Origin: an uncultured beta proteobacterium
Lineage (GTDB): Bacteria > Pseudomonadota > Gammaproteobacteria > Burkholderiales > Burkholderiaceae_C
Assembly: GCA_903838565.1 (NCBI GenBank)
Contig: CAILZB010000112.1
Span: 97,098 to 161,097, forward strand
Length of the DNA: 64,000 bases
Direction of reading: 5' to 3'
The notes below the pieces were generated by a model that made no database searches, was not told the origin of the DNA, and saw nothing but the letters and a program-made list of their open reading frames with translations. Positions 10,117 through 43,400 of the stretch are shown here, piece by piece. A program made the translations under genes and the position numbers. Numbering within the stretch: the stretch's first letter is position 1; every line of letters begins with the position of its first letter.

Positions 10117-10176
10117 AGCGATCCAAATAGGAGAAGTCCCCGCCGTGCGCACACAACGGGGACCCCAGTTTCGAAA

Positions 10177-12846: not shown

Positions 12847-12897
12847 ATTTCCCTTTTCAAAAATATCAAAGTGGGCCCAAAAGTGAATGCAGCCCGG

Positions 12898-13024
12898 GAT
12901 TACCAACAAAACCTTCCCCTGAAGCCATGCCAATGAAGTCAGGGGAGCAAGACATTATCAAAACGATACGCATCAGTTGCGTACCACTTTACTGATTTTA
13001 AGATGCCACTATGCTACCAATTGG
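12898..13024. promoter_or_regulatory. candidate NagQ operator region: three TACCA (TGGTA on the other strand) repeats plus a CCAATTGG palindrome upstream of the TonB-dependent receptor operon
   Basis: Repeats at 12899-12905, 12981-12986 and 13014-13019; CCAATTGG at 13017-13024; AT-rich 277 bp intergenic. Confidence 0.3.
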
Positions 13025-28584: not shown

Positions 28585-29889
28585 ATGGCGCACTTGCTGA
28601 TCATCGAACTGCCCGGTGGCAACGACACCGACATCGCTCAAGCCGCGATTTCGCGCGGCGACGACTTCACGTTCCTGTCGGCGCAACTCGGGCATTACCG
28701 GCGCCAGCCTCAGGTGCAGGCCATCCTTGATCAGGCCTATGCGCAGATCGAGGTGCCCGGTTTTGACTACCCGCAGGTGGAGCACGCCGTGCTGGAACTG
28801 CACGCGCACTTTCCCCTGGACGCCGTGCTGTGCCTGCTGGATATCCGCCTGATCGATGCCGCGCGCCTGGCGCAACGCCTGGATCTGCGCCACGTCAGTC
28901 CGTCGACGGCGGTGCTGTTGCGCGACAAGTTCAAGGTGCGTCAGCGTCTGGCCGAGCGCGGTTTGACGCAGCCGGAGTTTGCGCTGGCGCAATCCAATGA
29001 TGAACTCAGGCAGGCCGTGGCGCGCCTGGGCCTGCCCGTGCTGATCAAGCCCTCAGACGGCTATGGCTCGCAAAACGTCGTCCTGCTGCGCCATGACGAA
29101 GACCTCGAGCCCTGGATCACACCACTCGACGACATGCTGCCCAGCCGCACCGACTACGGCCTGGGCGTCAGAGCCAACGACCGACTGCTGGTCGAGCGCT
29201 ACATGGAAGGCGCCGTGATCGGCTGCGACACGCTGAGCGTGAATGGCGAACATCGGATGCTGGGCGTGAACGAAAAACTGTTCTTCAATCCTCCTTCTTT
29301 TGCCATCCAGGGCGGTTGTTTCCAGCCGAACGCACCCGCTTTCGAAAGCATCCAGCGCTATGTCTTTGCGTGTCTGGATGCGGTCGGTTTCGACTGGGGC
29401 GCAACCCACACCGAGCTCATGCTCACCGCCGATGGTCCGCGCCTGATCGAGATCAATCCACGACTGGTGGGGGCCAAGATTGCGCGGCTTGTTGGCTACG
29501 CGCTGAACCATTCGATCCACTCCGACCTGATCACCACGCATTTGGGCAAGCATGCCGCTTTCCACGCCGGGCCTGCTGCGGCTCACGTGGCGGTGACGCG
29601 CTGGATCGTGGCCGAGCAACCGGGTGTGCTGGAGCGCATCGACCTGCCAGACTGGCGCGACGACCGCATCCGCTGTGTGGAAATATTGAAGCAGCCTGGC
29701 GACACGCTGCGGCCGCCGTTCGAGAATGCTGACCGCATCGGCTACGTCATGGTGTGCGCACCCACCCGTGACGAAGCCGAGACGCTGGCGCAGCGTTTTG
29801 TGGCCGCAACACAGGTGGGGCTGAAGCCCGCCGTGGACGATCAAGGCGTTGCCATGCGCTCCCAGAGCATGGCGCGAAAGGCGTCGTAG
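28585..29889 (+). CDS. ATP-grasp domain protein (carboxylate-amine ligase-like)
   Basis: Pre-ATP-grasp plus ATP-grasp fold (LIKPSDGYGSQNV and LIEINPRL motifs). Confidence 0.7.
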   Translation: MAHLLIIELPGGNDTDIAQAAISRGDDFTFLSAQLGHYRRQPQVQAILDQAYAQIEVPGFDYPQVEHAVLELHAHFPLDAVLCLLDIRLIDAARLAQRLDLRHVSPSTAVLLRDKFKVRQRLAERGLTQPEFALAQSNDELRQAVARLGLPVLIKPSDGYGSQNVVLLRHDEDLEPWITPLDDMLPSRTDYGLGVRANDRLLVERYMEGAVIGCDTLSVNGEHRMLGVNEKLFFNPPSFAIQGGCFQPNAPAFESIQRYVFACLDAVGFDWGATHTELMLTADGPRLIEINPRLVGAKIARLVGYALNHSIHSDLITTHLGKHAAFHAGPAAAHVAVTRWIVAEQPGVLERIDLPDWRDDRIRCVEILKQPGDTLRPPFENADRIGYVMVCAPTRDEAETLAQRFVAATQVGLKPAVDDQGVAMRSQSMARKAS

Positions 29890-30977
29890 GCCTTTTGCAT
29901 CACGGCCGGCTTGTAGGGAAAGAGCGCGACATCGTCGGTCGAATGCACCCAGGCGCGGCTGTCCACCTCGAACAGCAGCAGGCGTCCAGCGCTCGTCTGC
30001 GCGCAATCGAGCACCGCGTAATCCAGGCCCAGTCGCCGCGAAATTTCCCGCAAAGACGCACCGTGGCGCAGACCGAAATCCTGCTCGAAATTCACCATCG
30101 CCGCAGCCTCCTCGGTGCGTTTGCTTTCGCTGAGTTCCATGCCCGCCGACAGGTAGTGAACCATCCAGTCCCCGGAAATCGCCAGGTGGCAGATGAAGGG
30201 CTCGCCATCAATCAGCACGATGCGCAGCTTGCGGAAAAGTCCATCGTCGTCCCGGTAGTCCACATAGTCGGCAACGAAATAGTCCGTGCCGGCGTGGCGT
30301 TCGACAAAGGCATCCAAAGCGGCCTGGGTGTCGATCTTCTCCAGGCCGGTTCCGCCTTGGGTATCGACCGGTCGGATCGTCAGCGGGAAGCGCGGGTTGC
30401 GGATCTGCTCGCGCGAGAGTCTTTGCGTTCTGGCCATGACCAGGCCGGGAATGTCGCGCAGCCGTTGGTAGGCGATGTCTCGCGCGCAGTTCCCAATGGC
30501 GCTCGCCGGGTTCAGCACCGGTCGCGGCCAGTCGGCCAGCAGGGTCTGCGCCTGCGCCAGCAGCGGACGGTTCTTGTCGGACTCGCCGATGGCCAGCATC
30601 ACCAGGTCGTGCTCGGGAATCCCCTCTGGCAGCGCCTGGTCGGGCAGCAGGTACAGCAGATCGAGCTGGACATCGCCGTGCTCAATCAGAAACTCCAGCG
30701 GCGTGTTGTCCAGCAGGTCGCCGGGCGCCATCAGCGCCAGCAGGCGAATGGCGGGCTGCTCGGGCCCTTCCAGGCGATACAGACGCCGCAGCTTCAAGGC
30801 ACGCGCCTGCATCTCGAGCGCGAACTCGCGCTGCCCCATGGCCAGCAGCACATAGAACATCTGCATGCACAGGTGCGCCAGGTCCGGGTTCTCGTGGGTC
30901 TGGGTGATGAACGCCGGCAGCGCCTGGGCGGGCATGCGCACCAGCTTGAGAAGACCCGCAATTGGCTGCAAATCCAT
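29841..30977 (-). CDS. hypothetical protein with RimK-like ATP-grasp C-terminal domain and an unknown N-terminal domain
   Basis: C-terminal pattern resembles RimK/GSH-synthetase ATP-binding domain (RIVLIDGEPF, LLLFEVD). 3' end overlaps the convergent ATP-grasp gene by 49 bp. Confidence 0.5.
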   Translation of the reverse strand: MDLQPIAGLLKLVRMPAQALPAFITQTHENPDLAHLCMQMFYVLLAMGQREFALEMQARALKLRRLYRLEGPEQPAIRLLALMAPGDLLDNTPLEFLIEHGDVQLDLLYLLPDQALPEGIPEHDLVMLAIGESDKNRPLLAQAQTLLADWPRPVLNPASAIGNCARDIAYQRLRDIPGLVMARTQRLSREQIRNPRFPLTIRPVDTQGGTGLEKIDTQAALDAFVERHAGTDYFVADYVDYRDDDGLFRKLRIVLIDGEPFICHLAISGDWMVHYLSAGMELSESKRTEEAAAMVNFEQDFGLRHGASLREISRRLGLDYAVLDCAQTSAGRLLLFEVDSRAWVHSTDDVALFPYKPAVMQKAYDAFRAMLWERMATP

Positions 30978-32695: not shown

Positions 32696-34041
32696 GCGAA
32701 CTCGCGGTCGGTCTGAGTTATGGCGCCGCCACGCTGCTGGTGATGTTCACCGGCATGCCGATCGCCTTTGCGCTGGGCACCGTGGCCGTCACCTTCATGT
32801 ACTTCTTCATGCCGGCCTCTTCGCTGGACATGGTGACGCAAAATGTCTACGAGGAGATGGCGTCGATCACCTTGCTGTCGATCCCGCTGTTCATCATGAA
32901 GGGCGCGGCCATCGGCAAGTCGCGCGCCGGTCAGGACCTGTACTCCGCGATCCACGCCTGGCTGCACAAGGTGCCGGGCGGGCTGGGCATCGCCAACGTG
33001 TTTGCCTGCGCGCTGTTTGCGGCGATGGCCGGCTCGTCGCCCGCCACCTGCTCGGCCATCGGCTCGGCCGGTATTCCGGAAATGCGCCGGCGCGGCTACT
33101 CACCCGGCTTTGCCGCCGGCATCATCGCCGCCGGCGGCACACTGGGCATCCTGCTGCCGCCCTCGATCGTGATGATTTTGTACGCGGTGGCGGCCGAGCA
33201 ATCGCTGGGGCGATTGTTCCTGGCCGGCATCGGCCCCGGGCTGCTGCTGGTGGCGCTGTTCTCCGGCTACGCCGTGCTGCGCGCGCGCACAGAGTACCGG
33301 GCCGCGCTGGCGCTGTACGAGCAGGGCGGAGCCAAGTCGGCCTACCTGGAGCGGGAGCATTTCACGCTGGCGCAGAAGGTGGAGATGCTGCCGCGCGTGC
33401 TGCCCTTCGTGCTGCTGCTGATCGGCGTCATGGTGGCGCTGTACGGCGGCTACGCCACGCCCTCCGAGACGGCAGGTCTGGGCGGACTGATGGCGCTGGG
33501 CCTGATCGCCGTCATCTACGGCCTGTGGCGGCCCCGCGACGTGGCGCCGATGCTGGCGTCCACACTGCGCGAATCCACCATGCTGATGCTCATCATCGGC
33601 ATGTCGCTGCTGTACAGCTACGTCATGAGCTCGCTGCACATCAGCCAAGGCGCGGCGCAGTGGATCGTGGACATGCACTTGTCGCGCTGGCTGCTGCTGG
33701 GGGTGATCTTGCTGATGGTGATCGTGCTGGGATTCTTCCTGCCGCCGGTGTCCATCATCCTGATGACCGCACCCATCATCCTGCCGCCGCTCAGAGCGGC
33801 GGGCTTCGACCTGGTGTGGTTTGGCGTGGTGATGACGATCGTGATGGAGATGGGCCTGATCCACCCGCCCGTGGGCCTGAACATCTTCGTCATCAAGAGC
33901 ATCGCCCCCGACATCCCGCTGAGCGAGGTGATCTGGGGCGTGCTGCCCTTCGTGGCGCTGATGTTCCTGGCGGTGTTCCTGATGTGCGTGTTCCCGGGGA
34001 TTGCCGTGGGCCTGCCGAACCTGGTGATGGGAGCGAAGTAG
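32692..34041 (+). CDS. dctM: TRAP transporter large permease DctM
   Basis: 12-TM DctM family. ATG at 32692 with a GGAG Shine-Dalgarno; ATGA overlap with dctQ. Confidence 0.9.
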   Translation: MSELAVGLSYGAATLLVMFTGMPIAFALGTVAVTFMYFFMPASSLDMVTQNVYEEMASITLLSIPLFIMKGAAIGKSRAGQDLYSAIHAWLHKVPGGLGIANVFACALFAAMAGSSPATCSAIGSAGIPEMRRRGYSPGFAAGIIAAGGTLGILLPPSIVMILYAVAAEQSLGRLFLAGIGPGLLLVALFSGYAVLRARTEYRAALALYEQGGAKSAYLEREHFTLAQKVEMLPRVLPFVLLLIGVMVALYGGYATPSETAGLGGLMALGLIAVIYGLWRPRDVAPMLASTLRESTMLMLIIGMSLLYSYVMSSLHISQGAAQWIVDMHLSRWLLLGVILLMVIVLGFFLPPVSIILMTAPIILPPLRAAGFDLVWFGVVMTIVMEMGLIHPPVGLNIFVIKSIAPDIPLSEVIWGVLPFVALMFLAVFLMCVFPGIAVGLPNLVMGAK

Positions 34042-34052
34042 CCAAGGGATTT

Positions 34053-34127
34053 GTCGGGTTACGCCCTGCGGGGCTAACCCGACCTGAAAATGGGCCCGTA
34101 GGTCGGGTTAGCGCAGCGTAACCCGAC
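34053..34127. repeat. REP-like double-hairpin element (GTCGGGTTA-loop-TAACCCGAC twice)
   Basis: Two 9-bp-arm hairpins with loops cgccctgcggggc and gcgcagcg; a near-identical copy lies at 42517-42587. Confidence 0.7.
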
Positions 34128-34199
34128 ACAAAGACCGCACAGTGGTCTAATCGAGTCCATTCGCCACGCCGGCGCGCATCCATCCATCCCCACGACCGC

Positions 34200-34490
34200 A
34201 TGAAAGACCACTACGCCGCCCTTGGGCTGAACAGCGCTGCGACGCTGGCCGACATCAAGAAGGCGTTTCGCCAGCAGGCCTCGCTGCACCACCCCGACCG
34301 CAACGCCGCGGCCGACGCGGCCGCGCGCTTTCGCGCGGTGCAGGAGGCGTACGAGGTGCTGTCGGATGAAGCGAAGCGCCAGGCCTACGATGACAACCGC
34401 CGCCGCAACCTGCTCGACAGCCCGATCGACACGGCGCGCGACCTCTGGCAGAACTATTTCAACCAAGTCATGGCAAGAACCTCGCCGTAA
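34200..34490 (+). CDS. stand-alone J-domain (DnaJ N-terminal domain) protein
   Basis: Only 96 aa; HPD motif (LHHPDRN); helix II/III pattern; no G/F, zinc-finger or C-terminal domain. Confidence 0.8.
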   Translation: MKDHYAALGLNSAATLADIKKAFRQQASLHHPDRNAAADAAARFRAVQEAYEVLSDEAKRQAYDDNRRRNLLDSPIDTARDLWQNYFNQVMARTSP

Positions 34491-34503
34491 AGCACCCGAC
34501 CCT

Positions 34504-35079
34504 ATGAGCATCTCTCCCTTCTTTCTCCAGCTTCGTTCGTCCTACCAGTCCGAAATGGACGACCTGAGCTTTGACTCCGAGGGCCGCGACGTGCTGCGCC
34601 AGCGCCTGACCGAGAAACGCCAGCAGCTTGGGTTTTTGCTGCAGATGATGGAACTCAGCCCGGAGATGGTGGCGGTGATCTTCCACCAGGGATTCCAGTT
34701 CAAGAAGCCTTCGGTGCTGGAGCATCTGCTGGCGCAGGAGCCGGAGGAGTTTCCCGAATGGGAGAGCCTGGCCGACGCCGTGCAATTGACCCCCTGGTCG
34801 CAGGAACTGGCCCAGCAGATCCTGAAGGAGCCCATGGGAGGCTGGTTCATGACCGTGGCCGCGGGTCTGGAGTACATGTATTCCCGACCGAACGCTGCCG
34901 CGACCGTGGTGCACGAGGAAGAGGACGACCAGGACGAAGAGGTCGAGGAAGGCTTGAGCGACGACGACGTGGGACGCAGCGTGCTCGACAGCGACGCCGA
35001 TGCAGCCAGCGGCGCGCGCGAACGCGAAGAGGCCGGCGCCGACTGGATGGCCGAGCAGGGTTTTGACCGCAAAGAATGA
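34504..35079 (+). CDS. hypothetical protein with polyacidic C-terminal tail
   Basis: Strong GC3 codon bias; 13 nt after the J-domain gene; EEEDDQDEEVEEGLSDDD tail; no recognisable domain. Confidence 0.5.
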   Translation: MSISPFFLQLRSSYQSEMDDLSFDSEGRDVLRQRLTEKRQQLGFLLQMMELSPEMVAVIFHQGFQFKKPSVLEHLLAQEPEEFPEWESLADAVQLTPWSQELAQQILKEPMGGWFMTVAAGLEYMYSRPNAAATVVHEEEDDQDEEVEEGLSDDDVGRSVLDSDADAASGAREREEAGADWMAEQGFDRKE

Positions 35080-35843
35080 TGGAACCGGACCGACGCATGA
35101 ACCACCTGGCCCTGATAGAAAAGACCCAAAGCCTGATCGCCGCCGGCGACATCGTGGGCGCCGAGTCGGCGCTGGTGGAACTGGCCGATGCCGAGGGCGA
35201 TCGCGCGCTGATGGTGGTGCTGGACCAGTTGCCGCCCAAGGACATCCTGGCCGTGATCCGCGAGTACGACAGCTCCAAGGATTCGGTCATCAACCTGTTG
35301 ATCACGCCGCAGCAGTTCGCGCGCGCCGTGGTGATCGAGAAGCAGTACAAGGACCTGAGCTGCACGCACCTGCGCGGCATGGTCAACTCCATCGTGTTTC
35401 GCGAAGACGCCAACACGGTGGAGTTCCTCAACGCCATCGGTGACCTCGAAGGCGGCAGCGAGGCGCTGGCCGACTATTTCTCCGAGAAGTGGAGCCGCGT
35501 CGAAGCCTTCGCCCGCACCGGAACCTTCGACCCCATGGAGGACGACGGCAAGATGATGACCGAGTCGGCGCTGCTGGCCTCGGCCTACGCCAGGCCGCGC
35601 GTCGAGCTGGACGAGGTGGCGGACCAGGACTGGATGCAACTGGCCTGGCTGCTGCGCCACGAGTGCCCGGACCTCTTCATCGAAATGCTGATCGTGCTGC
35701 GCGCCAAGGCCCGCGCCCACGACCAGGCGGCCGAGGAGGAAGAGGAGGGCGAGGAGGACGACGGCAAGGTCGAGACCTCGGCCACGGACCGCGGCAAGGC
35801 CACTCCGGCAGCGCGCGAGTCGGACGAAGAATCCGCGATCTGA
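35076..35843 (+). CDS. hypothetical protein with polyacidic C-terminal tail
   Basis: ATGA overlap with the previous gene; AAEEEEEGEEDDG tail; no recognisable domain. Confidence 0.5.
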   Translation: MMEPDRRMNHLALIEKTQSLIAAGDIVGAESALVELADAEGDRALMVVLDQLPPKDILAVIREYDSSKDSVINLLITPQQFARAVVIEKQYKDLSCTHLRGMVNSIVFREDANTVEFLNAIGDLEGGSEALADYFSEKWSRVEAFARTGTFDPMEDDGKMMTESALLASAYARPRVELDEVADQDWMQLAWLLRHECPDLFIEMLIVLRAKARAHDQAAEEEEEGEEDDGKVETSATDRGKATPAARESDEESAI

Positions 35844-35863
35844 GCGCGCAGCCTTTGCAAGAT

Positions 35864-37075
35864 ATGACAGCGCGCGCAGCCACCCGTTCCGGCATCTCCC
35901 TATTCGACGCCCGGCCCTTCTTCGAGAAGGCGCTGCACTACGGCGTGCAGCACGGCATCATCGACCAGGCCAAGCTCGATGCGATCTGCCAGGACGCGCC
36001 CAAGGGCATGGTGCAGATTGCGCGCTACTTTGGCACAGAGTTCTTGCGCCCGGAACTGGAAAAGGCCAAGGACCGCATGGTGAATCTGGTCAGCCTGTAC
36101 CTGGAACACAGCAGCGGCGGCGACTTGAGAATCGCCGCCGAGTCACTGCGCGACCACAGCTTTCTGTCGCGCTCCAAGGGCGGCTCGGACATGCTGAAAC
36201 AACTGATCGCGATGCCGCAGCACAGCCACTTCGGCATGCACGAACGCGCGGCTTTTAGCGACGAGCAGATCCCGCTGCTGGCCAAGTGGTCGCTGCGCAG
36301 CTACGCCGACTACCGGACAGAATTGGCGCAACGCAGCCAGGTGGCGCAGGTGGTGGACGCCGCGCTGTGGCTGGCGCACGCGCTGGGCATGGAGGCGGAG
36401 GAACTGGAAGAAGCCGATGCCGACGCCGAGGCCGTGGTGCGTACGGCGCTGCTTGCTCTTGCGGCCAAGCGCAGCGAGATGCCCGACTGGGTGGCGTTGG
36501 AAAAGCTGCTCGCGGCGCTGCGCAAGAAAGGCACGGCGGTGGAGATTGCTGTGCCGAAGAAACTGCCAGAACATCTGCAAGCGGCGGTGCTGGCCGTGCG
36601 CGAATCGGTGCAGGCGGACCTGGAGAAGCTGCTGGACCCGGCGCAGAACCTGCGCCGGCTGCTGCGCCAGACCCCCGCCTTCATGGGCCGCTACTTCTGG
36701 CGCGAAGACGCACTGAACGAAGTCGACCAGCATGAACGCGCCACCTCCAAGGCCTGGGACAAGGCCACGGGTGGTCACGACGACGAAGGCTCGCTGCTCA
36801 CGCTGCTGTTGTGCCTGGCGGCGGGCAGCACGGCCAAGACGCTGCTCACCGAAAAGGGCGCTGCGGCGCTGATCCGCAAGATCAGAAAATCCGGATTGAA
36901 GCCGGAGCTGGCGCAGCAATTCGTTCTCGAGCAGGCGCCGGTGCAGCACCAGGGGAACTACCTGCGGCTGTGGAAGAGCTTTCTGGAAGAGGCCCTGCCC
37001 ACGCTGCAAAGCGACGCCGACTACGCGCTGCACGACGCGCTGGCGTTGCTGCGGCGCGAGTGCAACGTCGAGTAA
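35864..37075 (+). CDS. hypothetical all-alpha protein (~403 aa)
   Basis: Strong GC3 bias; 20 nt after the previous gene; no recognisable domain. Confidence 0.5.
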   Translation: MTARAATRSGISLFDARPFFEKALHYGVQHGIIDQAKLDAICQDAPKGMVQIARYFGTEFLRPELEKAKDRMVNLVSLYLEHSSGGDLRIAAESLRDHSFLSRSKGGSDMLKQLIAMPQHSHFGMHERAAFSDEQIPLLAKWSLRSYADYRTELAQRSQVAQVVDAALWLAHALGMEAEELEEADADAEAVVRTALLALAAKRSEMPDWVALEKLLAALRKKGTAVEIAVPKKLPEHLQAAVLAVRESVQADLEKLLDPAQNLRRLLRQTPAFMGRYFWREDALNEVDQHERATSKAWDKATGGHDDEGSLLTLLLCLAAGSTAKTLLTEKGAAALIRKIRKSGLKPELAQQFVLEQAPVQHQGNYLRLWKSFLEEALPTLQSDADYALHDALALLRRECNVE

Positions 37076-37145
37076 AGGCATAGGGGCGCCGCCTTCTGTT
37101 CAGCCCAGACCCATCACCTGTTTGCCGGTTTTTTCGGGAGCGATC

Positions 37146-37559
37146 ATGGCCACCAAAGAAGAAGTCACAGCGTTCATTGCGGCCGAGTTTCCGCAGACCC
37201 AATGCAGGATCCAGCAGGTCGGCCAGCGTGGTGCCACGGTGACGCACGAGGTCGGCCCCGCTGAACTGCGCCCGGGAGGAACGGTCTCCGGCCCCGTGCT
37301 CATGGCGGTGGCCGATGTCGCGCTTTACGTTGCCATCCTCGGCGAAATCGGCATCGTTCCGCTGACGGTGACCACGAGTCTGACCATCAATTTCCTGCGC
37401 AAACCGGCCGCGGACAAGCGCATCGTGGCGGTCTGCAAGCTGATGAAGGTGGGTCGCTCGCTGGCGGTGGGCGAGGTGTCGCTGTATTCGGAAGGCTCAG
37501 ACGAACCGGTGGCGCACGTGGTCGGAACCTACTCCATTCCGGCGCGCCGCGAACCCTGA
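37146..37559 (+). CDS. PaaI/YbgC-type hotdog-fold thioesterase
   Basis: 138 aa; hotdog 4HBT pattern (GTVSGPVLMAVADVALYVA). GGGAG Shine-Dalgarno before the ATG at 37146. Confidence 0.7.
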   Translation: MATKEEVTAFIAAEFPQTQCRIQQVGQRGATVTHEVGPAELRPGGTVSGPVLMAVADVALYVAILGEIGIVPLTVTTSLTINFLRKPAADKRIVAVCKLMKVGRSLAVGEVSLYSEGSDEPVAHVVGTYSIPARREP

Positions 37560-37562
37560 CCC

Positions 37563-37582
37563 GGCGGCTGCGCGCAGCCGCC
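37563..37582. terminator. perfect 20-bp GC palindrome GGCGGCTGCGCGCAGCCGCC downstream of the thioesterase gene
   Basis: Exact dyad 4 nt after the stop; no U tract. Confidence 0.3.
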
Positions 37583-37803
37583 AGACAGCGCAAGCGGTGC
37601 TGCGCAAGGCAGGCCCGCGTTTTGATACGATACTGACAATCCAGTCGGTGAAATCGTCAACGACGACGCGCCATTCCAGAGCGTTGCCGGGTTTTCGAGC
37701 TATCCAAAGACTGTGTGATTGAGCCGGGACCTCGGGTGCGCACGTGACCCTTGGCAAGCCGGCTGTGGAGTTCGAAGACCATCTTGATCAAGGAAGCATC
37801 TGT

Positions 37804-39852
37804 ATGGAATACCTCGTCGGAAATTGGGGCGCAGTGGTCGTGTGCGCTGTCGTGCTGGCTGCGGCCGTGTTCTGGAGAAAAGTGTTGTGGCTGTTTGGCG
37901 TCATCATCGTGCCCGACGACAGCATCGGCACCGTGACCAAGAAGTTCGTCATCTTCGGTGCCAACAGCAAGCTGCCCAACGGCCAGATCGTGGCGCTCCA
38001 GGGAGAGGCCGGATACCAGGCGGACAGTCTGGCGCCGGGGCTGCACATGGGACTGTGGCCCTGGCAGTACGCCATCGACCTGATCCCCTTTGAGGTCGTT
38101 CCGCAGGGCAAGGTGGGCGTGGTCCAGGCCTGCGACGGCAAGCCCCTGCCCAGCGGACGCGTGATCGCACGCGACGTGGACTGCGACTACTTTCAGGATG
38201 CGCGTGCCTTCTTGCAGGGTGGCGGCGAGCGCGGGCCGCAGATGAAAGTGATTCCGCCCGGGACTTACCGCATCAACCCCTTGCTGTTCACCGTCGCACT
38301 GGCCGACGCCACGGAAATTCCACAGGGGAAATTGGGCGTGGTGGAGGCGCACGACGGCAACCCCCTTCCCATCGGACGCGTCATCGCCAAGGGCATCGAC
38401 TGCGACTCCTACCAGAACGCCAAGGCGTTTCTGGACGGCGGCGGCGAGCGCGGTCCTCAGGTGAAGCTCATGCCGCCGGGCAACTATCGCATCAACCCGG
38501 TGCTGTTCGATGTGCGTCTGGTGGATGTGGTCGATATCCCCGAGAACAAGATCGGCATCGTGACCGTGAAGGAAGGTGCGCCGCTGCCCACCGGTGAAAT
38601 CGCCGGTGGCGAAGTCGCCGGGCACAACATGTTCCAGGACCCGGACAAATTCATCGCCAACGGCGGCTTCAAGGGCCTGCAGGAACAGGTGCTGCTGGCG
38701 GGTCGCTACTTCCTGAACCCGCGCTTCGTGACCGTGGAAATCGTTGAGATGACGACGGTGCCGATCGCCAACGTGGGCGTCGTCATTTCCTATGTGGGCA
38801 AGGAAGGCAAGGACGTGACGGGCGAGACCTTCAAGCACGGCAACCTCGTCTCCAAGGGCGAAAAGGGCGTGTGCGTCGATCCGCTGGATCCGGGCAAGTA
38901 CCCGATCAACCCGAACACGCACAAGGTGGTGAACGTGCCGACCGCGAACGTGGTGCTGAACTGGGCCGACGACAAGAGCGAGGCGCACAAGCTCGACGCG
39001 AATCTGTCCACCATCACGGTGCGCTCGGCCGACGGCTTCAAGTTCAATCTGGACGTGTCTCAGATCATCCACATCCCGCGCAACGACGCGCCCAAGGTGA
39101 TCGCCCGCTTTGGCGACATGAGCGCGCTCGTGACCCAGGTGCTGGAGCCGACCATCGGCAACTATTTCCGCAATGCGGCGCAGGGCAGCGACATCATCGA
39201 CTTCCTGAAGAACCGCTCCGTGCGCCAGGAGGAGGCGCGCAGTTCCATCTCGGCTGCCTTGCAGGAGTACAACGTGGGCGCGGTGGACACCTTGATCGGC
39301 GACATCGTGCCGCCGGAAGCGCTGATGCGCACACTGACCGATCGCAAGATCGCCGAGCAGGAACGCGTCACCTACGAAACCCAGCGCCAGGCCCAGGGTG
39401 TGCGCCAGGAACTGGAGCAGGCTACGGCGCTGGCGGCGACCCAGGCCCGCGTCGTCGACGCCGAGCGCAAGGTCACGATTGCCGCATTCGAGGCGAATGC
39501 CGCGGTGAAATTTGCCGAAGGCAACGCCAAGAGCAAGACCATCAACGCCGAAGCCGACGCCACCGTGCTGCGCACCGTCGGCGAGGCCGAAGGCGCCAAG
39601 ATCCTGGCCGTGGGTGGCGCCGAAGCCGAGGTCATCAAGCAAAAAGTCGGCTCGATGGAGGCCGGGAACTTTGCCGTGGTGCAGGTCGCCGAGGCTCTGG
39701 CCAAGGGTGGCATCAAGATCGTTCCCGATATCGTCGCGGGCGGCGGCTCCGACGGCTTGGGCGGTGGTCTCACGACAGTGCTGCTGGGCAATCTGATCCA
39801 CCAGGACTACAGCAGGCGCAAGGGATCGGGTGCTGAAAACAGCGGCGCGTAG
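37804..39852 (+). CDS. flotillin/SPFH-family membrane protein (YqiK-like) with an N-terminal array of ~73-aa repeats
   Basis: N-terminal TM helix; three to five tandem repeats (G-hydrophobic-V, G-x-PLP-x-G, PG-x-Y-x-INP) preceding the SPFH core; long coiled-coil flotillin tail rich in A/E/Q/R. Confidence 0.8.
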   Translation: MEYLVGNWGAVVVCAVVLAAAVFWRKVLWLFGVIIVPDDSIGTVTKKFVIFGANSKLPNGQIVALQGEAGYQADSLAPGLHMGLWPWQYAIDLIPFEVVPQGKVGVVQACDGKPLPSGRVIARDVDCDYFQDARAFLQGGGERGPQMKVIPPGTYRINPLLFTVALADATEIPQGKLGVVEAHDGNPLPIGRVIAKGIDCDSYQNAKAFLDGGGERGPQVKLMPPGNYRINPVLFDVRLVDVVDIPENKIGIVTVKEGAPLPTGEIAGGEVAGHNMFQDPDKFIANGGFKGLQEQVLLAGRYFLNPRFVTVEIVEMTTVPIANVGVVISYVGKEGKDVTGETFKHGNLVSKGEKGVCVDPLDPGKYPINPNTHKVVNVPTANVVLNWADDKSEAHKLDANLSTITVRSADGFKFNLDVSQIIHIPRNDAPKVIARFGDMSALVTQVLEPTIGNYFRNAAQGSDIIDFLKNRSVRQEEARSSISAALQEYNVGAVDTLIGDIVPPEALMRTLTDRKIAEQERVTYETQRQAQGVRQELEQATALAATQARVVDAERKVTIAAFEANAAVKFAEGNAKSKTINAEADATVLRTVGEAEGAKILAVGGAEAEVIKQKVGSMEAGNFAVVQVAEALAKGGIKIVPDIVAGGGSDGLGGGLTTVLLGNLIHQDYSRRKGSGAENSGA

Positions 39853-40038
39853 CTGCGTGATGGACGGGTGCGCCGGCGAATGATGTCTTGGGTCCTGGCG
39901 AGAACTCGCCCTTCGTGGACCAAGCCGGAAACTTTGGCGCGGCGCCCAGGGGACGATGGTCAGCCGGTCGCGTTGGCCGACTCTGATGCAGCATCAGACG
40001 TCATTCACATTCCGGCCGGGAATGATTCCAACGGGCTG

Positions 40039-40310
40039 GAAGCTGAAGTCCAAATTTCCAGACAGCAGTCACTCAAAGTCGCTCTAAAGCTGACGGTCAA
40101 CGAAGAGAAGACCCGCATCTGCAAGGTGCCGCAAGGTAGTTTCGATTTCTTGGGTTACACGTTTGGTGGGCTGTACTCGCCAAAGACACGCAAAACCCGG
40201 ATCGGGATGCGCCCGTCCAAGAGGAGCATCGCGCGCATGGTCGAAAAGGCCCATGCGTTGACCGTCCGCATAACGTGTTGGCAAGAGACCACGGAGGTGG
40301 GCCTTTTTTG
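40039..40310 (+). pseudogene. remnant of a group II intron reverse transcriptase/maturase (RT domain 7 and X-domain fragment)
   Basis: LKLTVNEEKTRI, FDFLGYTF and RPSKRSIARMVEKAHALT match the end of the RT domain and the start of the maturase X domain. No upstream RT motifs and a truncated C-terminus. Followed by low-GC DNA. Confidence 0.5.
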
Positions 40311-40400
40311 CATGCGGGGCCATTCAATTGAAGGTGATTACGTCACAATCCCCCCTGCGAAGATATAGTTTTGACATTTATTACTTTTTTTGGAATGACC

Positions 40401-40862
40401 ATGAAGAGAATCGCCAGTGCTGTGTTGACATGCGTCTTGTTCGCGGGGTGTGCCTCGGTGAAGATGGAAAGCAAGGACGCGTCTGATAAGTTGAAGCAAT
40501 TTGCGCCGCCCCCGACAGGCAATGCGGGGCTGTATACCTTTCGGGACAGTTCGTTTGGAGCTGCATTGAAGAAAGACATTTTTGTGGACGGGAAGTGCGT
40601 GGGGGAATCTGCACCCAACGTATTTTTTTATACCGAAGTGGCCGGGGGCCAAGAGCATGAGATCACAACGGAGTCTGAGTTCTCACCCAATGCTCTGAAG
40701 TTGATGGTGGAGGCCGGGAAAAACTACTTCGTCAGGCAGTACATCAAAATGGGCCTCATTATCGGCGGTGCCAACCTGGAGGTCGTTCCCGAGGACCAGG
40801 GCAAACTCGCTGTGACAAAGCTTGAACTGGCGGCCGGCGGCAAGTGCAGTAAGCCGCAGTAA
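40401..40862 (+). CDS. small lipoprotein (DUF2846-like) in a low-GC islet
   Basis: Signal peptide with lipobox LFAGC. About 45% GC versus ~67% for the flanks. Confidence 0.55.
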   Translation: MKRIASAVLTCVLFAGCASVKMESKDASDKLKQFAPPPTGNAGLYTFRDSSFGAALKKDIFVDGKCVGESAPNVFFYTEVAGGQEHEITTESEFSPNALKLMVEAGKNYFVRQYIKMGLIIGGANLEVVPEDQGKLAVTKLELAAGGKCSKPQ

Positions 40863-41191
40863 ATATACGTCCGTCGGCACTGCACTCGGTCCAGGTCATT
40901 GCCTGCGAATGTCAAACCTGCTTTGGCGTATTTAGGCGGTCGCAGAATTCGGATGACAAAGTACGCTGAGCCTCCGCTGAGGCGTAGCGCCCATCCCTTG
41001 GGGAGCGACACCTAGGAGGTCCGGTGACGCGTTGGCTGTTTGGTCTGGTTTCGCTGCGTACTTGACTCCCGACTGCCCCGCGTGAATGACCGGATCCAGT
41101 CTGAACGCACCCCAAAACAGCTGGCGCGCATGTTGACCCTCCGATGGATTCCAGTTGGAGGTCCCACGCCAACCGCCGACAGGCAGCGCCT

Positions 41192-42013
41192 TCAGCCCCG
41201 CCGCGGCATACCCAGGATGGCGCGCGCCTCGTCGGGCGTCGCCACCGGCCGATCGAGTTCGGCGGCGATGCGCACGATGCGTTGCACCAGCTGCGCGTTG
41301 CTGGTGGCGAGTTCGCCCCTGCGGTAATAGACGTTGTCCTCAAATCCGACGCGCACGTGTCCGCCCAGCAGCATGGCGAGCGTGGCCAGCGGCAGCTGGG
41401 CCGCGCCTATGCCGGCCACGGTCCAGGTGGATGCGGGAGGCAATTGCGACTGCAGGTACATCAGCGCCTGATGCGTTCCCGCCATGCCGCCGGGGATGCC
41501 CAGCACGAAGTCGAAGTGCTGAGGTCCCTGCAGCAAGCCGGACTTGAGCCAGCGCTGCACGGTGGTAAGCATGCCGGTGTCGAAGATCTCCAGTTCGATC
41601 TTCACGCCCTGCTGCTGCATGGCGCGCGCGAAGGTCTCCATGTCGGCCGGCAGGTTTTCGAACAGGCCGTCGCCGAAGTTCACCGAGCCCATGGAGAGCG
41701 TGGCCATCTCGGGTGCGAGCGTCACCGGCGCCAGGCGCTCCGCCGCCGTCATGCCGACCGCGCCGCCCGTGGAGACCTGCACGATCACGTCGCAGCGTGC
41801 GCGCACGGCGGCGATGATGGCTCGATACGTCTCCCTGTCCTGCGTCGGGGTTCCCTCGGCATGGCGGGCGTGCACGTGCACGATGGATGCGCCGGCCTGG
41901 CAGCAGGCTTCGGCCGCGATCGCGATTTCCTCGGGCGTGATCGGCAAGGCCGGTTGCTGCTCGCGCGTGACCTCGGCCCCGTTCAGCGCCGCCGTGATGA
42001 TGAGTTTTTCCAT
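41192..42013 (-). CDS. kce: 3-keto-5-aminohexanoate cleavage enzyme (BKACE/DUF849 family)
   Basis: TIM-barrel BKACE motifs (IITAALNG, HVHARH). Sits in the kam cluster. ATG at 42013. Confidence 0.8.
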   Translation of the reverse strand: MEKLIITAALNGAEVTREQQPALPITPEEIAIAAEACCQAGASIVHVHARHAEGTPTQDRETYRAIIAAVRARCDVIVQVSTGGAVGMTAAERLAPVTLAPEMATLSMGSVNFGDGLFENLPADMETFARAMQQQGVKIELEIFDTGMLTTVQRWLKSGLLQGPQHFDFVLGIPGGMAGTHQALMYLQSQLPPASTWTVAGIGAAQLPLATLAMLLGGHVRVGFEDNVYYRRGELATSNAQLVQRIVRIAAELDRPVATPDEARAILGMPRRG

Positions 42014-42024
42014 GATGGGTCCGT

Positions 42025-42432
42025 TCAGCGCGCGACGCGCTGGAAGGCGGCAGGAACGACGCAGGTGCCCGACGCCTTGCACACGACGACCGGCTCGGCC
42101 AGCACGTCGGCGGCCGAAGGCTGTCCGGGAACCGCGACCGAGGCGATCACCTTGCGCGCGACGAACTCCATCTTGCGCGAGGTCTTGCCCATGGACACGA
42201 TGCGGCCCGTGGCTTCGATGTAGTCGCCGGCAAACACCGGCGCCAGGAATTCGATGTTGTCGTAGGCGACGAACAGGCCTTCGTCGCCGTCGCTCCTGAT
42301 CAGCAATTCGGTGGCGACATCGCCAAACAGGTGCAGCATCTTCGCGCCGTCGACCAGGCCGCCGCCGTAGTGGGCGTCGTGCGCGCTCATGCGCAAACGG
42401 ATGAGACTGCTGATTTCGGTAGGTGTGGTCAT
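42025..42432 (-). CDS. kal: 3-aminobutyryl-CoA ammonia-lyase (hotdog fold)
   Basis: About 135-aa hotdog protein between kamE and kce. AGGAGA Shine-Dalgarno. Confidence 0.6.
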
Positions 42433-42516
42433 GATGGTTCTCCTGAGTCGTTGGCTTGATCCAGCGGCTGCCGCGGAACCGGCTTTGCCGGGCCGCTGGC
42501 AGCGCCCCCTTCAGCC

Positions 42517-42587
42517 GTAGGTCGGGTTAGCGAAGCGTAACCCGACATGAGGCCGTCGTCGGGTTACGCCCTGCGGGCTAACCCGAC
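42517..42587. repeat. REP-like double-hairpin element (second copy) inside the kamE-kal intergenic region
   Basis: GTCGGGTTA-gcgaagcg-TAACCCGAC and GTCGGGTTA-cgccctgcgggc-TAACCCGAC; hairpin order swapped relative to the copy at 34053. Confidence 0.7.
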
Positions 42588-42644
42588 CTACGCCCGTGGT
42601 GCTTGTCGATTTCCGCGTCGCAGACAGCTCGCATTGACGCATGG

Positions 42645-43400
42645 CTATTTGGCGCTTCGTTGAATCCACTCGTGGATGGCGAAGGATGCCACGTCTTCGG
42701 CGTAGGTCTGGGTGCCAAAGCCCGCGTCGTAGCCCAGCTCCTTGGCGAGCTCGTGGCTGATGCGCGGGCCGCCGACGATCAGGATCACCTGGTCGCGCAG
42801 TCCTTCGGCTTCGAGCAGGTCGGACAGCTTGGTGAGGTTGTCCAGGTGGATGTTCTTTTGCGTCACCACCTGCGACACCAGGATCACGTCGGCGCGCTCC
42901 TCGATCGCACGGCTCACCAGGTCCTCGGAGTCCACCTGCGCGCCCAGGTTGATGGCGCGAATGGAGTGGTAGCTCTCCAGGCCCTTGTGGCCGTTGAAGC
43001 CCTTCATGTTCATGATGGCGTCGATGCCCACGGTGTGGGCGTCGGTCTCGATCGTCGCGCCGATGACGACCATGCGCCGCCCCATCTTCGCGTCGATGAG
43101 CGCGTTCACGCCATCCTTGTCGAGCACTTCGAATTCGGGCTTGGCGACCTGCAGGCTGGCCAGATCGACCTGGTGCTTGCACTGCCCATAGACCACGTAA
43201 AAGCTGAATCCCTGACCCATGTCCTCGGCGTGCGCCACGGCCGGCTCGTCCAGACCCATCATCGCGGCCAGGCGCTTGGCGCCTTCCTTGGAGGTTTCAT
43301 CCAGCGCCACCGGCAGCGTGAACGAGACTTGCACGCGGCCGTCGTTCAGCGTGTCGCCGTAGGGCTTGACCCATTGTTCGGGCAGTTTCAATTCGGACAT
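42645..43400 (-). CDS. kamE: lysine 5,6-aminomutase beta subunit (B12-binding)
   Basis: B12-binding DxHxxG motif (ETDAHTVGID). ATG at 43400 one nt after the kamD stop. Confidence 0.85.
   Translation of the reverse strand: MSELKLPEQWVKPYGDTLNDGRVQVSFTLPVALDETSKEGAKRLAAMMGLDEPAVAHAEDMGQGFSFYVVYGQCKHQVDLASLQVAKPEFEVLDKDGVNALIDAKMGRRMVVIGATIETDAHTVGIDAIMNMKGFNGHKGLESYHSIRAINLGAQVDSEDLVSRAIEERADVILVSQVVTQKNIHLDNLTKLSDLLEAEGLRDQVILIVGGPRISHELAKELGYDAGFGTQTYAEDVASFAIHEWIQRSAK

What the first reader, a model, noticed from the sequence alone, without database searches (positions are those of the whole stretch)
34200..37075. Compact operon of a J-domain-only protein plus three uncharacterised proteins (two with polyacidic tails), a candidate novel chaperone-linked system
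A 96-aa stand-alone J domain with an intact HPD motif is followed at 13 nt, -4 nt and 20 nt spacings by three genes with strong coding signal but no recognisable domains. Two of them end in long Glu/Asp tracts. No Hsp70 partner is encoded locally. Stand-alone J proteins usually recruit DnaK to a specific client or site. Downstream lie a hotdog thioesterase and a flotillin. This is the block in the window I could least explain, and it may be an undescribed DnaK-recruiting module, possibly for membrane-microdomain or protein-quality control.
Basis: partly seen in the sequence, partly recalled or inferred. Interest (0 to 1): 0.7.

Follow-up and report, generated by a model that had tools for sequence, protein, structure and literature searches.

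The report
Known atcJABC cold-adaptation chaperone operon
The four genes are a copy, from a freshwater Comamonadaceae bacterium, of the published atcJABC operon, in which a small J-domain protein brings the DnaK chaperone to a protein that binds RNA polymerase so that cells can grow in the cold; it is real but not new.

Summary
There are four co-oriented, tightly packed genes at 34200-37075. The first encodes a 96-aa J-domain protein with an intact HPD motif.

The block is not an undescribed system. It is an orthologue of the atcJABC "adaptation to cold" operon of Shewanella oneidensis (Maillot 2019; Boussouar 2026 preprint, which lists Rhodoferax among its 294 genomes).

- **Sequence matches.** Genes 1, 2 and 4, and relatives of gene 3, give the cognate NCBIfam Atc model (AtcJ, AtcA, AtcB, AtcC) as their only or only specific match, in the published order.
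- **AtcJ.** It has H31-P32-D33 and the AtcC-binding PX7W motif (P75...W83).
- **AtcB.** It has the two Asp residues, 23 apart (D35/D58), that are required for RNA polymerase binding in the published systems.
- **AtcA.** It has the described acidic disordered C-terminal region.
- **AtcC.** It is of the long type.
- **Synteny.** J-A-B-C order is kept in 80 of 80 Comamonadaceae species loci, and in Actimicrobium, Thiobacillus and distant metagenomic loci. The thioesterase and the SPFH protein are neighbours in 0 of 80.

The DnaK-recruitment idea is right. The novelty claim and the membrane-microdomain link are not supported. All matches fall below NCBIfam's narrow equivalog cut-offs, and public records call these proteins hypothetical. 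Interest is low.

The parts
34200..34490 (+). atcJ: 96-aa (10.9 kDa) class-C J-domain protein, a J domain plus a short C-terminal extension
   Evidence: Pfam DnaJ E 3e-22, residues 3-64. NCBIfam AtcJ model NF050028 aligned end to end (1-87 against 1-93/93), E 3e-14, 53 bits, below the 150-bit cut-off. Orthologues were found in 78 of the 80 loci, the other two being cut by a contig end.
34290..34298 (+). HPD motif (H31-P32-D33), the DnaK-contacting tripeptide
   Evidence: Read directly from the sequence. Conserved in 77/77 Comamonadaceae AtcJ. It has the same residue number as the published H31Q loss-of-function variant (bioRxiv 10.64898/2026.09.07.749886).
34422..34448 (+). PX7W motif (P75-IDTARDL-W83) in the C-terminal extension, the published AtcC-binding determinant
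   Evidence: Read directly from the sequence. Present in 77/77 Comamonadaceae AtcJ, at position 75 in 62 of them. Trp83 is the residue number mutated (W83R) in Collimonas arenae AtcJ.
34504..35079 (+). atcA: 191 aa, 21.7 kDa, pI 4.2; globular N-terminal part plus an acidic C-terminal region
   Evidence: The window protein has no family hit of its own. The consensus of 79 orthologues hits NCBIfam AtcA NF047888 at E 4.9e-6 (25-166 against 27-168/178). The Actimicrobium orthologue is 39% identical over the full length (BLASTP 5e-39) and hits AtcA at E 1.5e-6.
34912..35076 (+). AtcA acidic (Asp/Glu-rich) C-terminal region ending in the conserved motif ADWMAEQGFDRKE
   Evidence: Asp+Glu fraction is 0.38 in the last 60 residues. 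The terminal motif is conserved in Comamonadaceae, Actimicrobium and Thiobacillus. The preprint describes a C-terminal Asp/Glu-rich disordered region for AtcA.
35097..35843 (+). atcB: 248 aa, 27.4 kDa, pI 4.35; the most conserved gene; presumed RNA-polymerase-binding component (the longest ORF starts at 35076)
   Evidence: 2711 homologues at E<=1e-3, all those with a source name shown in the list called 'hypothetical'. 190 representatives at 50% clustering. 35 of 109 relatives that are 40-51% identical to it hit NCBIfam AtcB NF047889 at E<=0.01, best 7.7e-5; the only other family hit was NepR, by 6 members. The AF2 model is all-helical, pLDDT 77, pTM 0.68.
35199..35201 (+). AtcB Asp35, first of the two conserved Asp
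   Evidence: Invariant in 81/81 Comamonadaceae and in 109/109 wider relatives. At least 90% conserved in 34 diverse representatives. The 23-residue spacing to D58 equals that of the published pairs D37/D60, D28/D51 and D33/D56.
35268..35270 (+). AtcB Asp58, second conserved Asp (context REYDSS)
   Evidence: Same conservation as Asp35.
35751..35840 (+). AtcB low-confidence acidic tail ending in the invariant EESAI-COOH
   Evidence: pLDDT is below 50 for residues 219-245. EESAI is present in 81/81. 32 of 34 diverse representatives end in a related tail such as ESAL, ESAI, DSAL or NSAL.
35864..37075 (+). atcC: 403 aa, 44.8 kDa, long-type AtcC; presumed adaptor that binds the AtcJ tail and AtcB
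   Evidence: NCBIfam AtcC NF047890 is the only hit: E 0.004, residues 16-200 against model 10-197/297, in register. The Actimicrobium orthologue (36.5% identical, BLASTP 8e-75) hits at E 1.5e-4. Precomputed Pfam DUF8235. The N-terminal motifs RPFFEKAL and VNLVSLYLE are kept even in the most distant loci.

Best explanation
Window 34200-37075 is an orthologue of the atcJABC operon in an uncultured freshwater Comamonadaceae (Rhodoferax/Polaromonas-like).

By homology with the characterised systems of Shewanella oneidensis, Collimonas arenae and Janthinobacterium sp. B9-8, it most likely works as follows:
1. AtcJ binds and stimulates the housekeeping DnaK, which is encoded elsewhere, through H31-P32-D33.
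2. AtcJ docks on AtcC through its C-terminal PX7W peptide.
3. AtcC binds AtcB.
4. AtcB binds RNA polymerase through Asp35/Asp58. In the published systems the contact is a positively charged helix of the beta-prime subunit.
5. DnaK, brought by AtcJ-AtcC, limits the build-up of the inhibitory AtcB-RNA polymerase complex.

The net effect in Shewanella is to allow growth at low temperature. AtcA is an accessory acidic protein that was dispensable there.

Shown here: gene order, motifs, homology and synteny. Inferred from the literature: every protein-protein contact and the cold phenotype. The thioesterase and the SPFH protein downstream are chance neighbours.
For: 1. **Cognate NCBIfam matches in the published order.** J hits AtcJ over its full length (E 3e-14). 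The gene 2 family hits AtcA (4.9e-6 for the consensus; 1.5e-6 for the Actimicrobium orthologue). The gene 3 family hits AtcB (35/109 members, best 7.7e-5; 5/34, best 8.5e-5). Gene 4 hits AtcC (0.004, in register; 1.5e-4). For genes 2 to 4 these are essentially the only hits among 18,950 models.
2. **Published determinants are present at the published positions.** H31 of HPD; PX7W with W83, as in C. arenae; two Asp 23 residues apart.
3. **Sizes match.** 10.9/21.7/27.4/44.8 kDa against 20/29/34 kDa for Shewanella AtcA/B/C, with AtcC reported to be longer in other species. AtcA has an acidic disordered C-terminal region, as described.
4. **Gene order is conserved.** J-A-B-C is kept in 80/80 Comamonadaceae species loci, in Actimicrobium and Thiobacillus, and in a distant metagenomic locus.
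5. **Conservation ranking matches the preprint.** AtcB > AtcJ > AtcC > AtcA, the same ranking as in the preprint's congruence statistics.
6. **Taxonomy and ecology fit.** The preprint names Rhodoferax among Atc-bearing genera and reports enrichment in aquatic and psychrophilic Beta- and Gammaproteobacteria. The closest relatives here are Rhodoferax, Polaromonas and Limnohabitans.
Against: - All four proteins score far below NCBIfam's curated equivalog cut-offs: 53 against 150 bits for AtcJ, no hit against 200 and 440 for AtcA and AtcB, 16.7 against 370 for AtcC.
- The window's own AtcA and AtcB give no NCBIfam hit at all. Those links go through relatives or a consensus.
- The AtcJ model scores lower than generic DnaJ models (53 against 79 bits), so that hit is driven by the J domain.
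- I could not obtain a Shewanella or Collimonas Atc sequence for a direct alignment.
- None of the interactions, the RNA polymerase binding or the cold phenotype has been tested in any Comamonadaceae. The preprint shows that some AtcB proteins do not bind E. coli RNA polymerase.
- The physiological mechanism and the regulated genes are still unknown even in Shewanella.
Confidence: 0.9

Rival explanations
1. One reading: an undescribed DnaK-recruiting module that works with the downstream hotdog thioesterase and flotillin-like SPFH protein in membrane-microdomain or envelope protein quality control.
For: The thioesterase starts only 70 nt after atcC on the same strand, with no convincing terminator between them. 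The SPFH gene follows on the same strand. The preprint notes that some atc operons carry additional genes. Membrane fluidity is a classical cold-adaptation target.
Against: The thioesterase, the SPFH protein, DUF2846 and the upstream DctPQM genes are absent from the neighbourhood in 80/80 other Comamonadaceae species loci. No flanking cluster is shared by more than 10 of 70 loci. The Actimicrobium and Thiobacillus flanks are different again. The four genes match the Atc models, and the experimentally found target of that system is RNA polymerase.
Confidence: 0.03
2. A toxin/antidote-type or anti-phage module: AtcB is a growth-arresting inhibitor of RNA polymerase, held in check by AtcC, AtcJ and DnaK, comparable to toxin-antitoxin-chaperone systems, and the cold phenotype is secondary.
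For: Overproduced AtcB is toxic, and the toxicity is relieved by AtcC+AtcJ+DnaK. The genomic flanks of the operon differ between lineages.
Against: There are no PADLOC hits for any of the six proteins. The preprint reports vertical inheritance congruent with the species tree. AtcB is 74-87% identical across Comamonadaceae genera, unlike fast-evolving defence genes. No mobile-element genes flank the operon here. AtcB toxicity was seen only on overproduction.
Confidence: 0.03
3. A convergent or paralogous four-gene J-protein operon that resembles Atc in layout but has a different client and function in Betaproteobacteria.
For: Every NCBIfam score is below the curated equivalog cut-off. AtcC is about 100 residues longer than in Shewanella, and only its N-terminal half aligns.
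Against: The cognate weak hits occur for all four genes in the right order. The functional residues (H31, W83, Asp pair) are conserved. The Collimonas and Janthinobacterium sp. B9-8 betaproteobacterial systems, which have long AtcC, were shown experimentally to behave like the Shewanella one. Rhodoferax is listed by the authors.
Confidence: 0.04

Closest known systems
AtcJ-AtcA-AtcB-AtcC of Shewanella oneidensis MR-1 (SO_1850, SO_1849, SO_1848, SO_1846; Maillot et al. 2019, PMC6715715)
   Same: Gene order is the same. AtcJ is a short J-domain protein with HPD (H31) and a roughly 21-aa tail carrying PX7W. AtcA is about 20 kDa and acidic. AtcB is 27-29 kDa with two Asp 23 residues apart. There is a small gap between atcJ and atcA: 13 nt here, against 8-24 bp in 74/80 gammaproteobacterial genomes. 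No Hsp70 gene lies in the operon.
   Different: Sequences are too diverged to pass NCBIfam's equivalog cut-offs. AtcC is 403 aa against 298 aa, and only the N-terminal ~200 residues align. Trp is at position 83 rather than 89, and the Asp pair is at 35/58 rather than 37/60. The host is a betaproteobacterium.
Atc system of Collimonas arenae Cal35, a betaproteobacterial system characterised in bioRxiv 10.64898/2026.09.07.749886
   Same: The PX7W motif is intact with Trp at residue 83, AtcC is of the long type, and the host is in the Burkholderiales. In that system AtcJ-AtcC binding, AtcB binding to RNA polymerase through the Asp pair, and DnaK-dependent relief of toxicity were all shown.
   Different: The family differs (Oxalobacteraceae against Comamonadaceae). 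The Asp pair is numbered D28/D51 there and D35/D58 here. I could not retrieve its sequence for direct alignment. The nearest Oxalobacteraceae operon I obtained (Actimicrobium, L090) is 57/39/45/37% identical for J/A/B/C.
HscB-IscU-HscA (a dedicated J protein encoded with its client)
   Same: It follows the same logic: a class-C J protein without a general substrate-binding domain, encoded in an operon with the specific protein it hands to an Hsp70.
   Different: HscB has its own Hsp70 (HscA) in the operon and a helical client-binding domain, and the client is an Fe-S scaffold. Here there is no local Hsp70, the adaptor (AtcC) is a separate protein, and the target is RNA polymerase. The NCBIfam HscB hit is only E 0.0037 and comes from the J domain.

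Membership tests
Atc system (atcJABC) | Four co-oriented genes in the fixed order atcJ-atcA-atcB-atcC, closely spaced | tested here: met
   Gaps are 13, +17 (or -4) and 20 nt. The same order is found in 80/80 Comamonadaceae loci and in L086, L090 and L091.
Atc system (atcJABC) | AtcJ is a short J-domain protein (~94 aa) with a functional HPD motif | tested here: met
   96 aa; Pfam DnaJ 3e-22; H31-P32-D33; HPD in 77/77 orthologues. Function of the motif was not tested.
Atc system (atcJABC) | AtcJ C-terminal extension of about 21 aa with the PX7W motif (Trp essential for AtcC binding) | tested here: met
   P75-IDTARDL-W83; present in 77/77 orthologues. The NCBIfam AtcJ model aligns through the tail (1-87 against 1-93/93).
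Atc system (atcJABC) | AtcA: about 20 kDa with a C-terminal Asp/Glu-rich disordered region, homologous to Shewanella AtcA | tested here: met
   21.7 kDa; Asp+Glu 0.38 in the last 60 residues. Homology is shown only indirectly: family consensus against NF047888 at E 4.9e-6, and an orthologue at 1.5e-6 that is 39% identical to the window protein. The window protein alone gives no hit.
Atc system (atcJABC) | AtcB carries two conserved Asp residues 23 apart (D37/D60 in S. oneidensis) that mediate RNA polymerase binding | tested here: met
   D35/D58. Invariant in 81/81 and 109/109, and at least 90% conserved in 34 diverse representatives. Weak NCBIfam AtcB alignments of relatives cover this N-terminal region with an offset of 1-3 residues, which places the pair within a few positions of 37/60.
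Atc system (atcJABC) | AtcB is homologous in sequence to Shewanella AtcB | tested here: inconclusive
   The window protein has no NF047889 hit. 35/109 relatives (40-51% identical to it) hit at E<=0.01, best 7.7e-5. No Shewanella sequence was available for a direct test.
Atc system (atcJABC) | AtcC: the N-terminal region is homologous, the C-terminal region and total length vary | tested here: met
   NF047890 is the only hit: E 0.004, 16-200 against 10-197/297. An orthologue hits at 1.5e-4. Precomputed Pfam DUF8235. 403 aa fits the 'longer than Shewanella' class.
Atc system (atcJABC) | Scores above NCBIfam's curated equivalog cut-offs (NF050028, NF047888, NF047889, NF047890) | tested here: not met
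   53 against 150 bits; no hit against 200; no hit against 440; 16.7 against 370. These models are narrow and appear to cover close relatives of the Shewanella proteins. The authors' wider family, defined by BLASTP plus synteny, includes Betaproteobacteria.
Atc system (atcJABC) | Physical network AtcJ-DnaK, AtcJ-AtcC, AtcC-AtcB, AtcB-RNA polymerase, and a cold-sensitive deletion phenotype | not testable with these tools
   This needs two-hybrid, ITC or pull-down assays and genetics. A single-sequence AF2 model of AtcC was unusable (pLDDT 41).
Atc system (atcJABC) | Found in aquatic, psychrophilic or mesophilic Beta- and Gammaproteobacteria and inherited vertically | tested here: met
   The relatives are Rhodoferax, Polaromonas (including P. 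glacialis), Limnohabitans, Acidovorax and Curvibacter. The preprint lists Rhodoferax.
Full-length DnaJ/CbpA (class A/B J proteins) | A G/F region and C-terminal substrate-binding domains follow the J domain | tested here: not met
   The protein ends at residue 96. The DnaJ and CbpA models align only over residues 1-69.
SPFH/flotillin-associated operon | Conserved genetic linkage of the module with the SPFH gene | tested here: not met
   The SPFH gene and the thioesterase are neighbours in 0/80 other species.
Known anti-phage defence systems (PADLOC) | A match of any component to a defence-system model | tested here: not met
   No hits at E<=0.1 for the four proteins or their two downstream neighbours.

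The most novel reading that the evidence does not exclude
AtcB ends in the invariant tail -EESA[I/L]-COOH after a disordered acidic stretch. It is conserved from Comamonadaceae to the most distant family members. AtcA has a conserved W(M/L)xEQGFD end after its own acidic region. These may be functional docking motifs that have not been described, for example for AtcC, the DnaK substrate-binding domain, or a nucleic-acid-binding surface of RNA polymerase. If so, they would supply the missing determinant of the AtcB-AtcC or AtcB-DnaK step. I found no mention of them in the two Atc papers I could read. Two others (Weber 2023, Boussouar 2025) were not available to me.
Probability: 0.2. Interest if true: 0.4.

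Novelty: already known. Interest (0 to 1): 0.15.

Why it matters
The locus adds little new biology. The system was described in 2019, and its spread in Beta- and Gammaproteobacteria, including Rhodoferax, was mapped in 2026.

Two practical points follow:
1. **Annotation gap.** More than 2,700 homologues of AtcB are known, and every one with a source name in the lists I saw is called 'hypothetical'. NCBIfam's four Atc models are too narrow to name the betaproteobacterial orthologues. A reader without the literature will therefore keep rediscovering this block as 'novel'. Broader subfamily models would fix that.
2. **Boundaries of the module.** The 80-species comparison shows that the unit is exactly four genes. 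It also confirms independently, on GTDB species representatives, the conservation ranking AtcB > AtcJ > AtcC > AtcA and the invariance of the functional residues.

Tried and rejected
1. Pfam and PADLOC on genes 2, 3 and 4 gave no significant hit: none for genes 2 and 3, and only sub-threshold Pfam hits for gene 4.
2. NCBIfam at E<=10 on the window's own AtcA and AtcB gave nothing relevant. The link needed a family consensus and orthologues.
3. I tried to reach Shewanella or Collimonas sequences and failed.
   - The HMMER search of 50%-identity representatives gave 190 hits, but none scored as a true NCBIfam AtcB.
With a closer alignment it returned only the 80 best loci, all Comamonadaceae.
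   - A profile of the most distant representatives found only 4 proteins.
   - A profile of mid-distance representatives found Thiobacillus, Sulfuriferula, Hydrogenophilales and Actimicrobium, but not Collimonas.
4. PDB sequence searches for AtcB and AtcC found no significant relative, and for AtcJ only generic J domains.
5. The AFDB Foldseek library was unavailable.
7. The single-sequence AF2 model of AtcC had pLDDT 41 and is unusable.
8. I looked for a conserved leader or promoter upstream of atcJ across 70 loci. No 8-mer is shared by more than 10 loci. Rfam found nothing in 33900-42700. The promoter and terminator scans were at background level.
9. The membrane/flotillin hypothesis and the defence/toxin hypothesis were considered and rejected on synteny and PADLOC evidence.


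Full report
**1. Observation**

The spacings are 13, -4 and 20 nt.

Gene 1 is a J domain (Pfam DnaJ, E 3e-22, residues 3-64) with H31-P32-D33.

Gene callers on the public contigs that carry the identical gene 4, as listed, start gene 3 at 35097 (248 aa). The homologues listed are mostly 247-251 aa. The -4 overlap is therefore probably a +17 nt gap.

Genes 2 and 3 are acidic (pI 4.2 and 4.35) and have Asp/Glu-rich C-terminal regions. Both, however, end in conserved non-acidic motifs.

No Hsp70 signature is found in any frame of the 64-kb window.

Downstream lie a 4HBT thioesterase and a 682-702-aa SPFH/Band_7 protein.

**2. Identity**

The local Pfam copy and PADLOC give no significant hit for genes 2, 3 and 4. 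NCBIfam gave the lead:
- Gene 1 aligns end to end with the 93-position model 'cold adaptation protein AtcJ' (E 3e-14).
- Gene 4 has a single hit, 'cold adaptation protein AtcC' (E 0.004, residues 16-200 against model positions 10-197).

These models come from the atcJABC operon of Shewanella oneidensis.
- Maillot et al. 2019 (PMC6715715) showed that AtcJ is a 94-aa J protein that stimulates DnaK. Its last 21 residues bind AtcC with a Kd of 7 nM, and AtcC binds AtcB. [quoted passage not shown]
- The 2026 preprint (bioRxiv 10.64898/2026.09.07.749886) adds that the AtcJ tail carries a PX7W motif whose Trp is essential. [quoted passage not shown]
- The preprint also reports the operon, always in the order J-A-B-C, in 294 genomes, mainly aquatic Beta- and Gammaproteobacteria, with Rhodoferax named among the genera.

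**3. Testing the four genes against that description**

*AtcJ.*
- PX7W is present as P75-IDTARDL-W83. Trp83 has the same residue number as in the experimentally tested Collimonas arenae AtcJ (W83R).
- HPD and PX7W are each present in 77/77 Comamonadaceae orthologues.

*AtcA.*
- The window protein alone has no hit.
- The majority consensus of 79 orthologues hits the NCBIfam AtcA model at E 4.9e-6, nearly full length and collinear.
- The Actimicrobium orthologue is 39% identical to the window protein over its full length (BLASTP 5e-39) and hits the model at E 1.5e-6.
- The size (21.7 kDa) and the acidic disordered C-terminus match the description.

*AtcB.*
- The window protein has 2711 homologues, and every one with a source name in the list shown is called hypothetical.
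- A search of 1.84 billion representatives gave 190 hits.
- Five of 34 diverse representatives, and 35 of 109 further relatives (40-51% identical to the window protein), hit the NCBIfam AtcB model. The best values are 8.5e-5 and 7.7e-5. The only other family hit is NepR, by 6 members.
- Asp35 and Asp58 are invariant in 81/81 and 109/109 sequences and at least 90% conserved across the diverse set.
- Their 23-residue spacing equals that of D37/D60 (Shewanella), D28/D51 (Collimonas) and D33/D56 (Janthinobacterium sp. B9-8).

*AtcC.*
- Beyond the window's own hit, the Actimicrobium orthologue (36.5% identical, 8e-75) hits AtcC at E 1.5e-4.
- A precomputed Pfam DUF8235 hit is on record.
- At 403 aa it belongs to the 'longer than Shewanella' class, in which only the N-terminal region is conserved, as the preprint describes.

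All scores are far below NCBIfam's equivalog cut-offs. They belong to the wider family as the authors define it.

**4. Synteny**

A scan of one genome per species returned 80 loci. They come from Rhodoferax, Polaromonas, Limnohabitans, Acidovorax, Curvibacter, Hylemonella, Leptothrix, Aquabacterium and others.
- Every locus has J-A-B-C in that order wherever the contig allows.
- Identity to the window is 74-87% for AtcB, 64-88% for AtcJ, 54-72% for AtcC in loci that hold the whole gene, and 45-66% for AtcA. This ranking matches the preprint's congruence statistics.
- The thioesterase, the SPFH protein, DUF2846 and the upstream DctPQM genes are neighbours in 0 of 80 loci.
- Clustering of all flanking ORFs found no family shared by more than 10 of 70 loci.

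The order also holds further away:
- Actimicrobium (Oxalobacteraceae) and Thiobacillus keep it, with different flanks.
- So does a distant low-GC metagenomic locus.
- Variants exist: one locus lacks atcA and has a split atcC, and Thiobacillus AtcJ has PX7S instead of PX7W. Both kinds of variation are described in the preprint.

The module is therefore exactly these four genes. The link to the flotillin is an accident of this lineage.

**5. Mechanism**

Shown here:
- the gene order;
- the J domain and HPD;
- PX7W;
- the Asp pair;
- the acidic disordered regions;

Inferred from the characterised systems:
1. AtcJ recruits the housekeeping DnaK.
2. AtcJ docks through W83 on AtcC.
3. AtcC holds AtcB.
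4. AtcB contacts a basic helix of the beta-prime subunit through D35/D58.
5. DnaK remodels or releases the AtcB-polymerase complex, which permits growth in the cold.

The physiological targets are unknown even in Shewanella.

**6. Rivals**

- The membrane-microdomain reading is contradicted by the synteny data.
- A defence or toxin-antidote reading has no PADLOC support and conflicts with the high conservation and the reported vertical inheritance.
- A convergent look-alike operon is unlikely, given cognate hits for all four genes and conservation of the published functional residues.

**7. Verdict**

The system is already described, however, and the flotillin link is not supported. The novelty class is 'already known' and interest is low.

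The residual points of interest are:
- an annotation gap: thousands of orthologues are labelled hypothetical because the NCBIfam models are narrow;
- two conserved C-terminal motifs, AtcB -EESA[I/L] and AtcA W(M/L)xEQGFD, that I did not find discussed in the accessible papers.

Noticed in passing
window 35826-35840 (AtcB C-terminus); also L086, L087, L089, L090, L091: AtcB ends in an invariant -EESAI/-EESAL carboxy-terminus after a low-confidence acidic tail. It is found in 81/81 Comamonadaceae, and 32 of 34 diverse representatives end in a related tail (12 ESAL, 7 ESAI). It looks like a docking motif. It is not mentioned in the two Atc papers I could read.
   Followed up: partly
window 35032-35076 (AtcA C-terminus): After its acidic region, AtcA ends in the conserved motif (A/S)(D/E)W(M/L)xEQGFD. 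The motif is shared with Actimicrobium and Thiobacillus AtcA and is degenerate in the most distant locus L086.
   Followed up: partly
window 34053-34083, 34102-34127, 42521-42546, 42558-42587: Two pairs of REP-like palindromes, GTCGGGTTA-(N8-13)-TAACCCGAC: 4 matches against 0 expected by chance. The first pair lies between the dctM stop and the atcJ start. It may act as a terminator or insulator separating the two transcription units.
   Followed up: partly
window 39868-40368: An ORF with an FLGYTF-type stretch, reminiscent of a group II intron or retron reverse-transcriptase remnant. It lies at the edge of a low-GC stretch (GC 0.535 over 40-41 kb). There is no Pfam hit and no Rfam hit.
   Followed up: partly
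window 8276-12933: A lower-GC block (0.55-0.57) encodes a TonB-dependent receptor (Plug domain), a GDSL lipase/acylhydrolase and an Acyl_transf_3 membrane protein on the minus strand. It may be an acquired polysaccharide-uptake cluster.
   Followed up: no
L091 5157-5435 (Thiobacillus sp. AtcJ); L087 (metagenomic locus): These are natural variants of the system. Thiobacillus AtcJ has PX7S instead of PX7W. L087 lacks atcA, and its atcC is split into 64-aa and 285-aa ORFs. L086 atcC has in-frame stops under genetic code 11.
   Followed up: partly
Alignment A6 (relatives of window 35097-35843): Six of 109 AtcB relatives give a weak NCBIfam hit to the anti-sigma factor NepR (best E 4.5e-4). This is probably spurious, but it is curious for a protein that binds RNA polymerase.
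   Followed up: no
window 29841-30977 (minus strand): A 378-aa ORF with no Pfam hit lies next to an ATP-grasp gene and upstream of the dctPQM TRAP transporter. It was not characterised.
   Followed up: no
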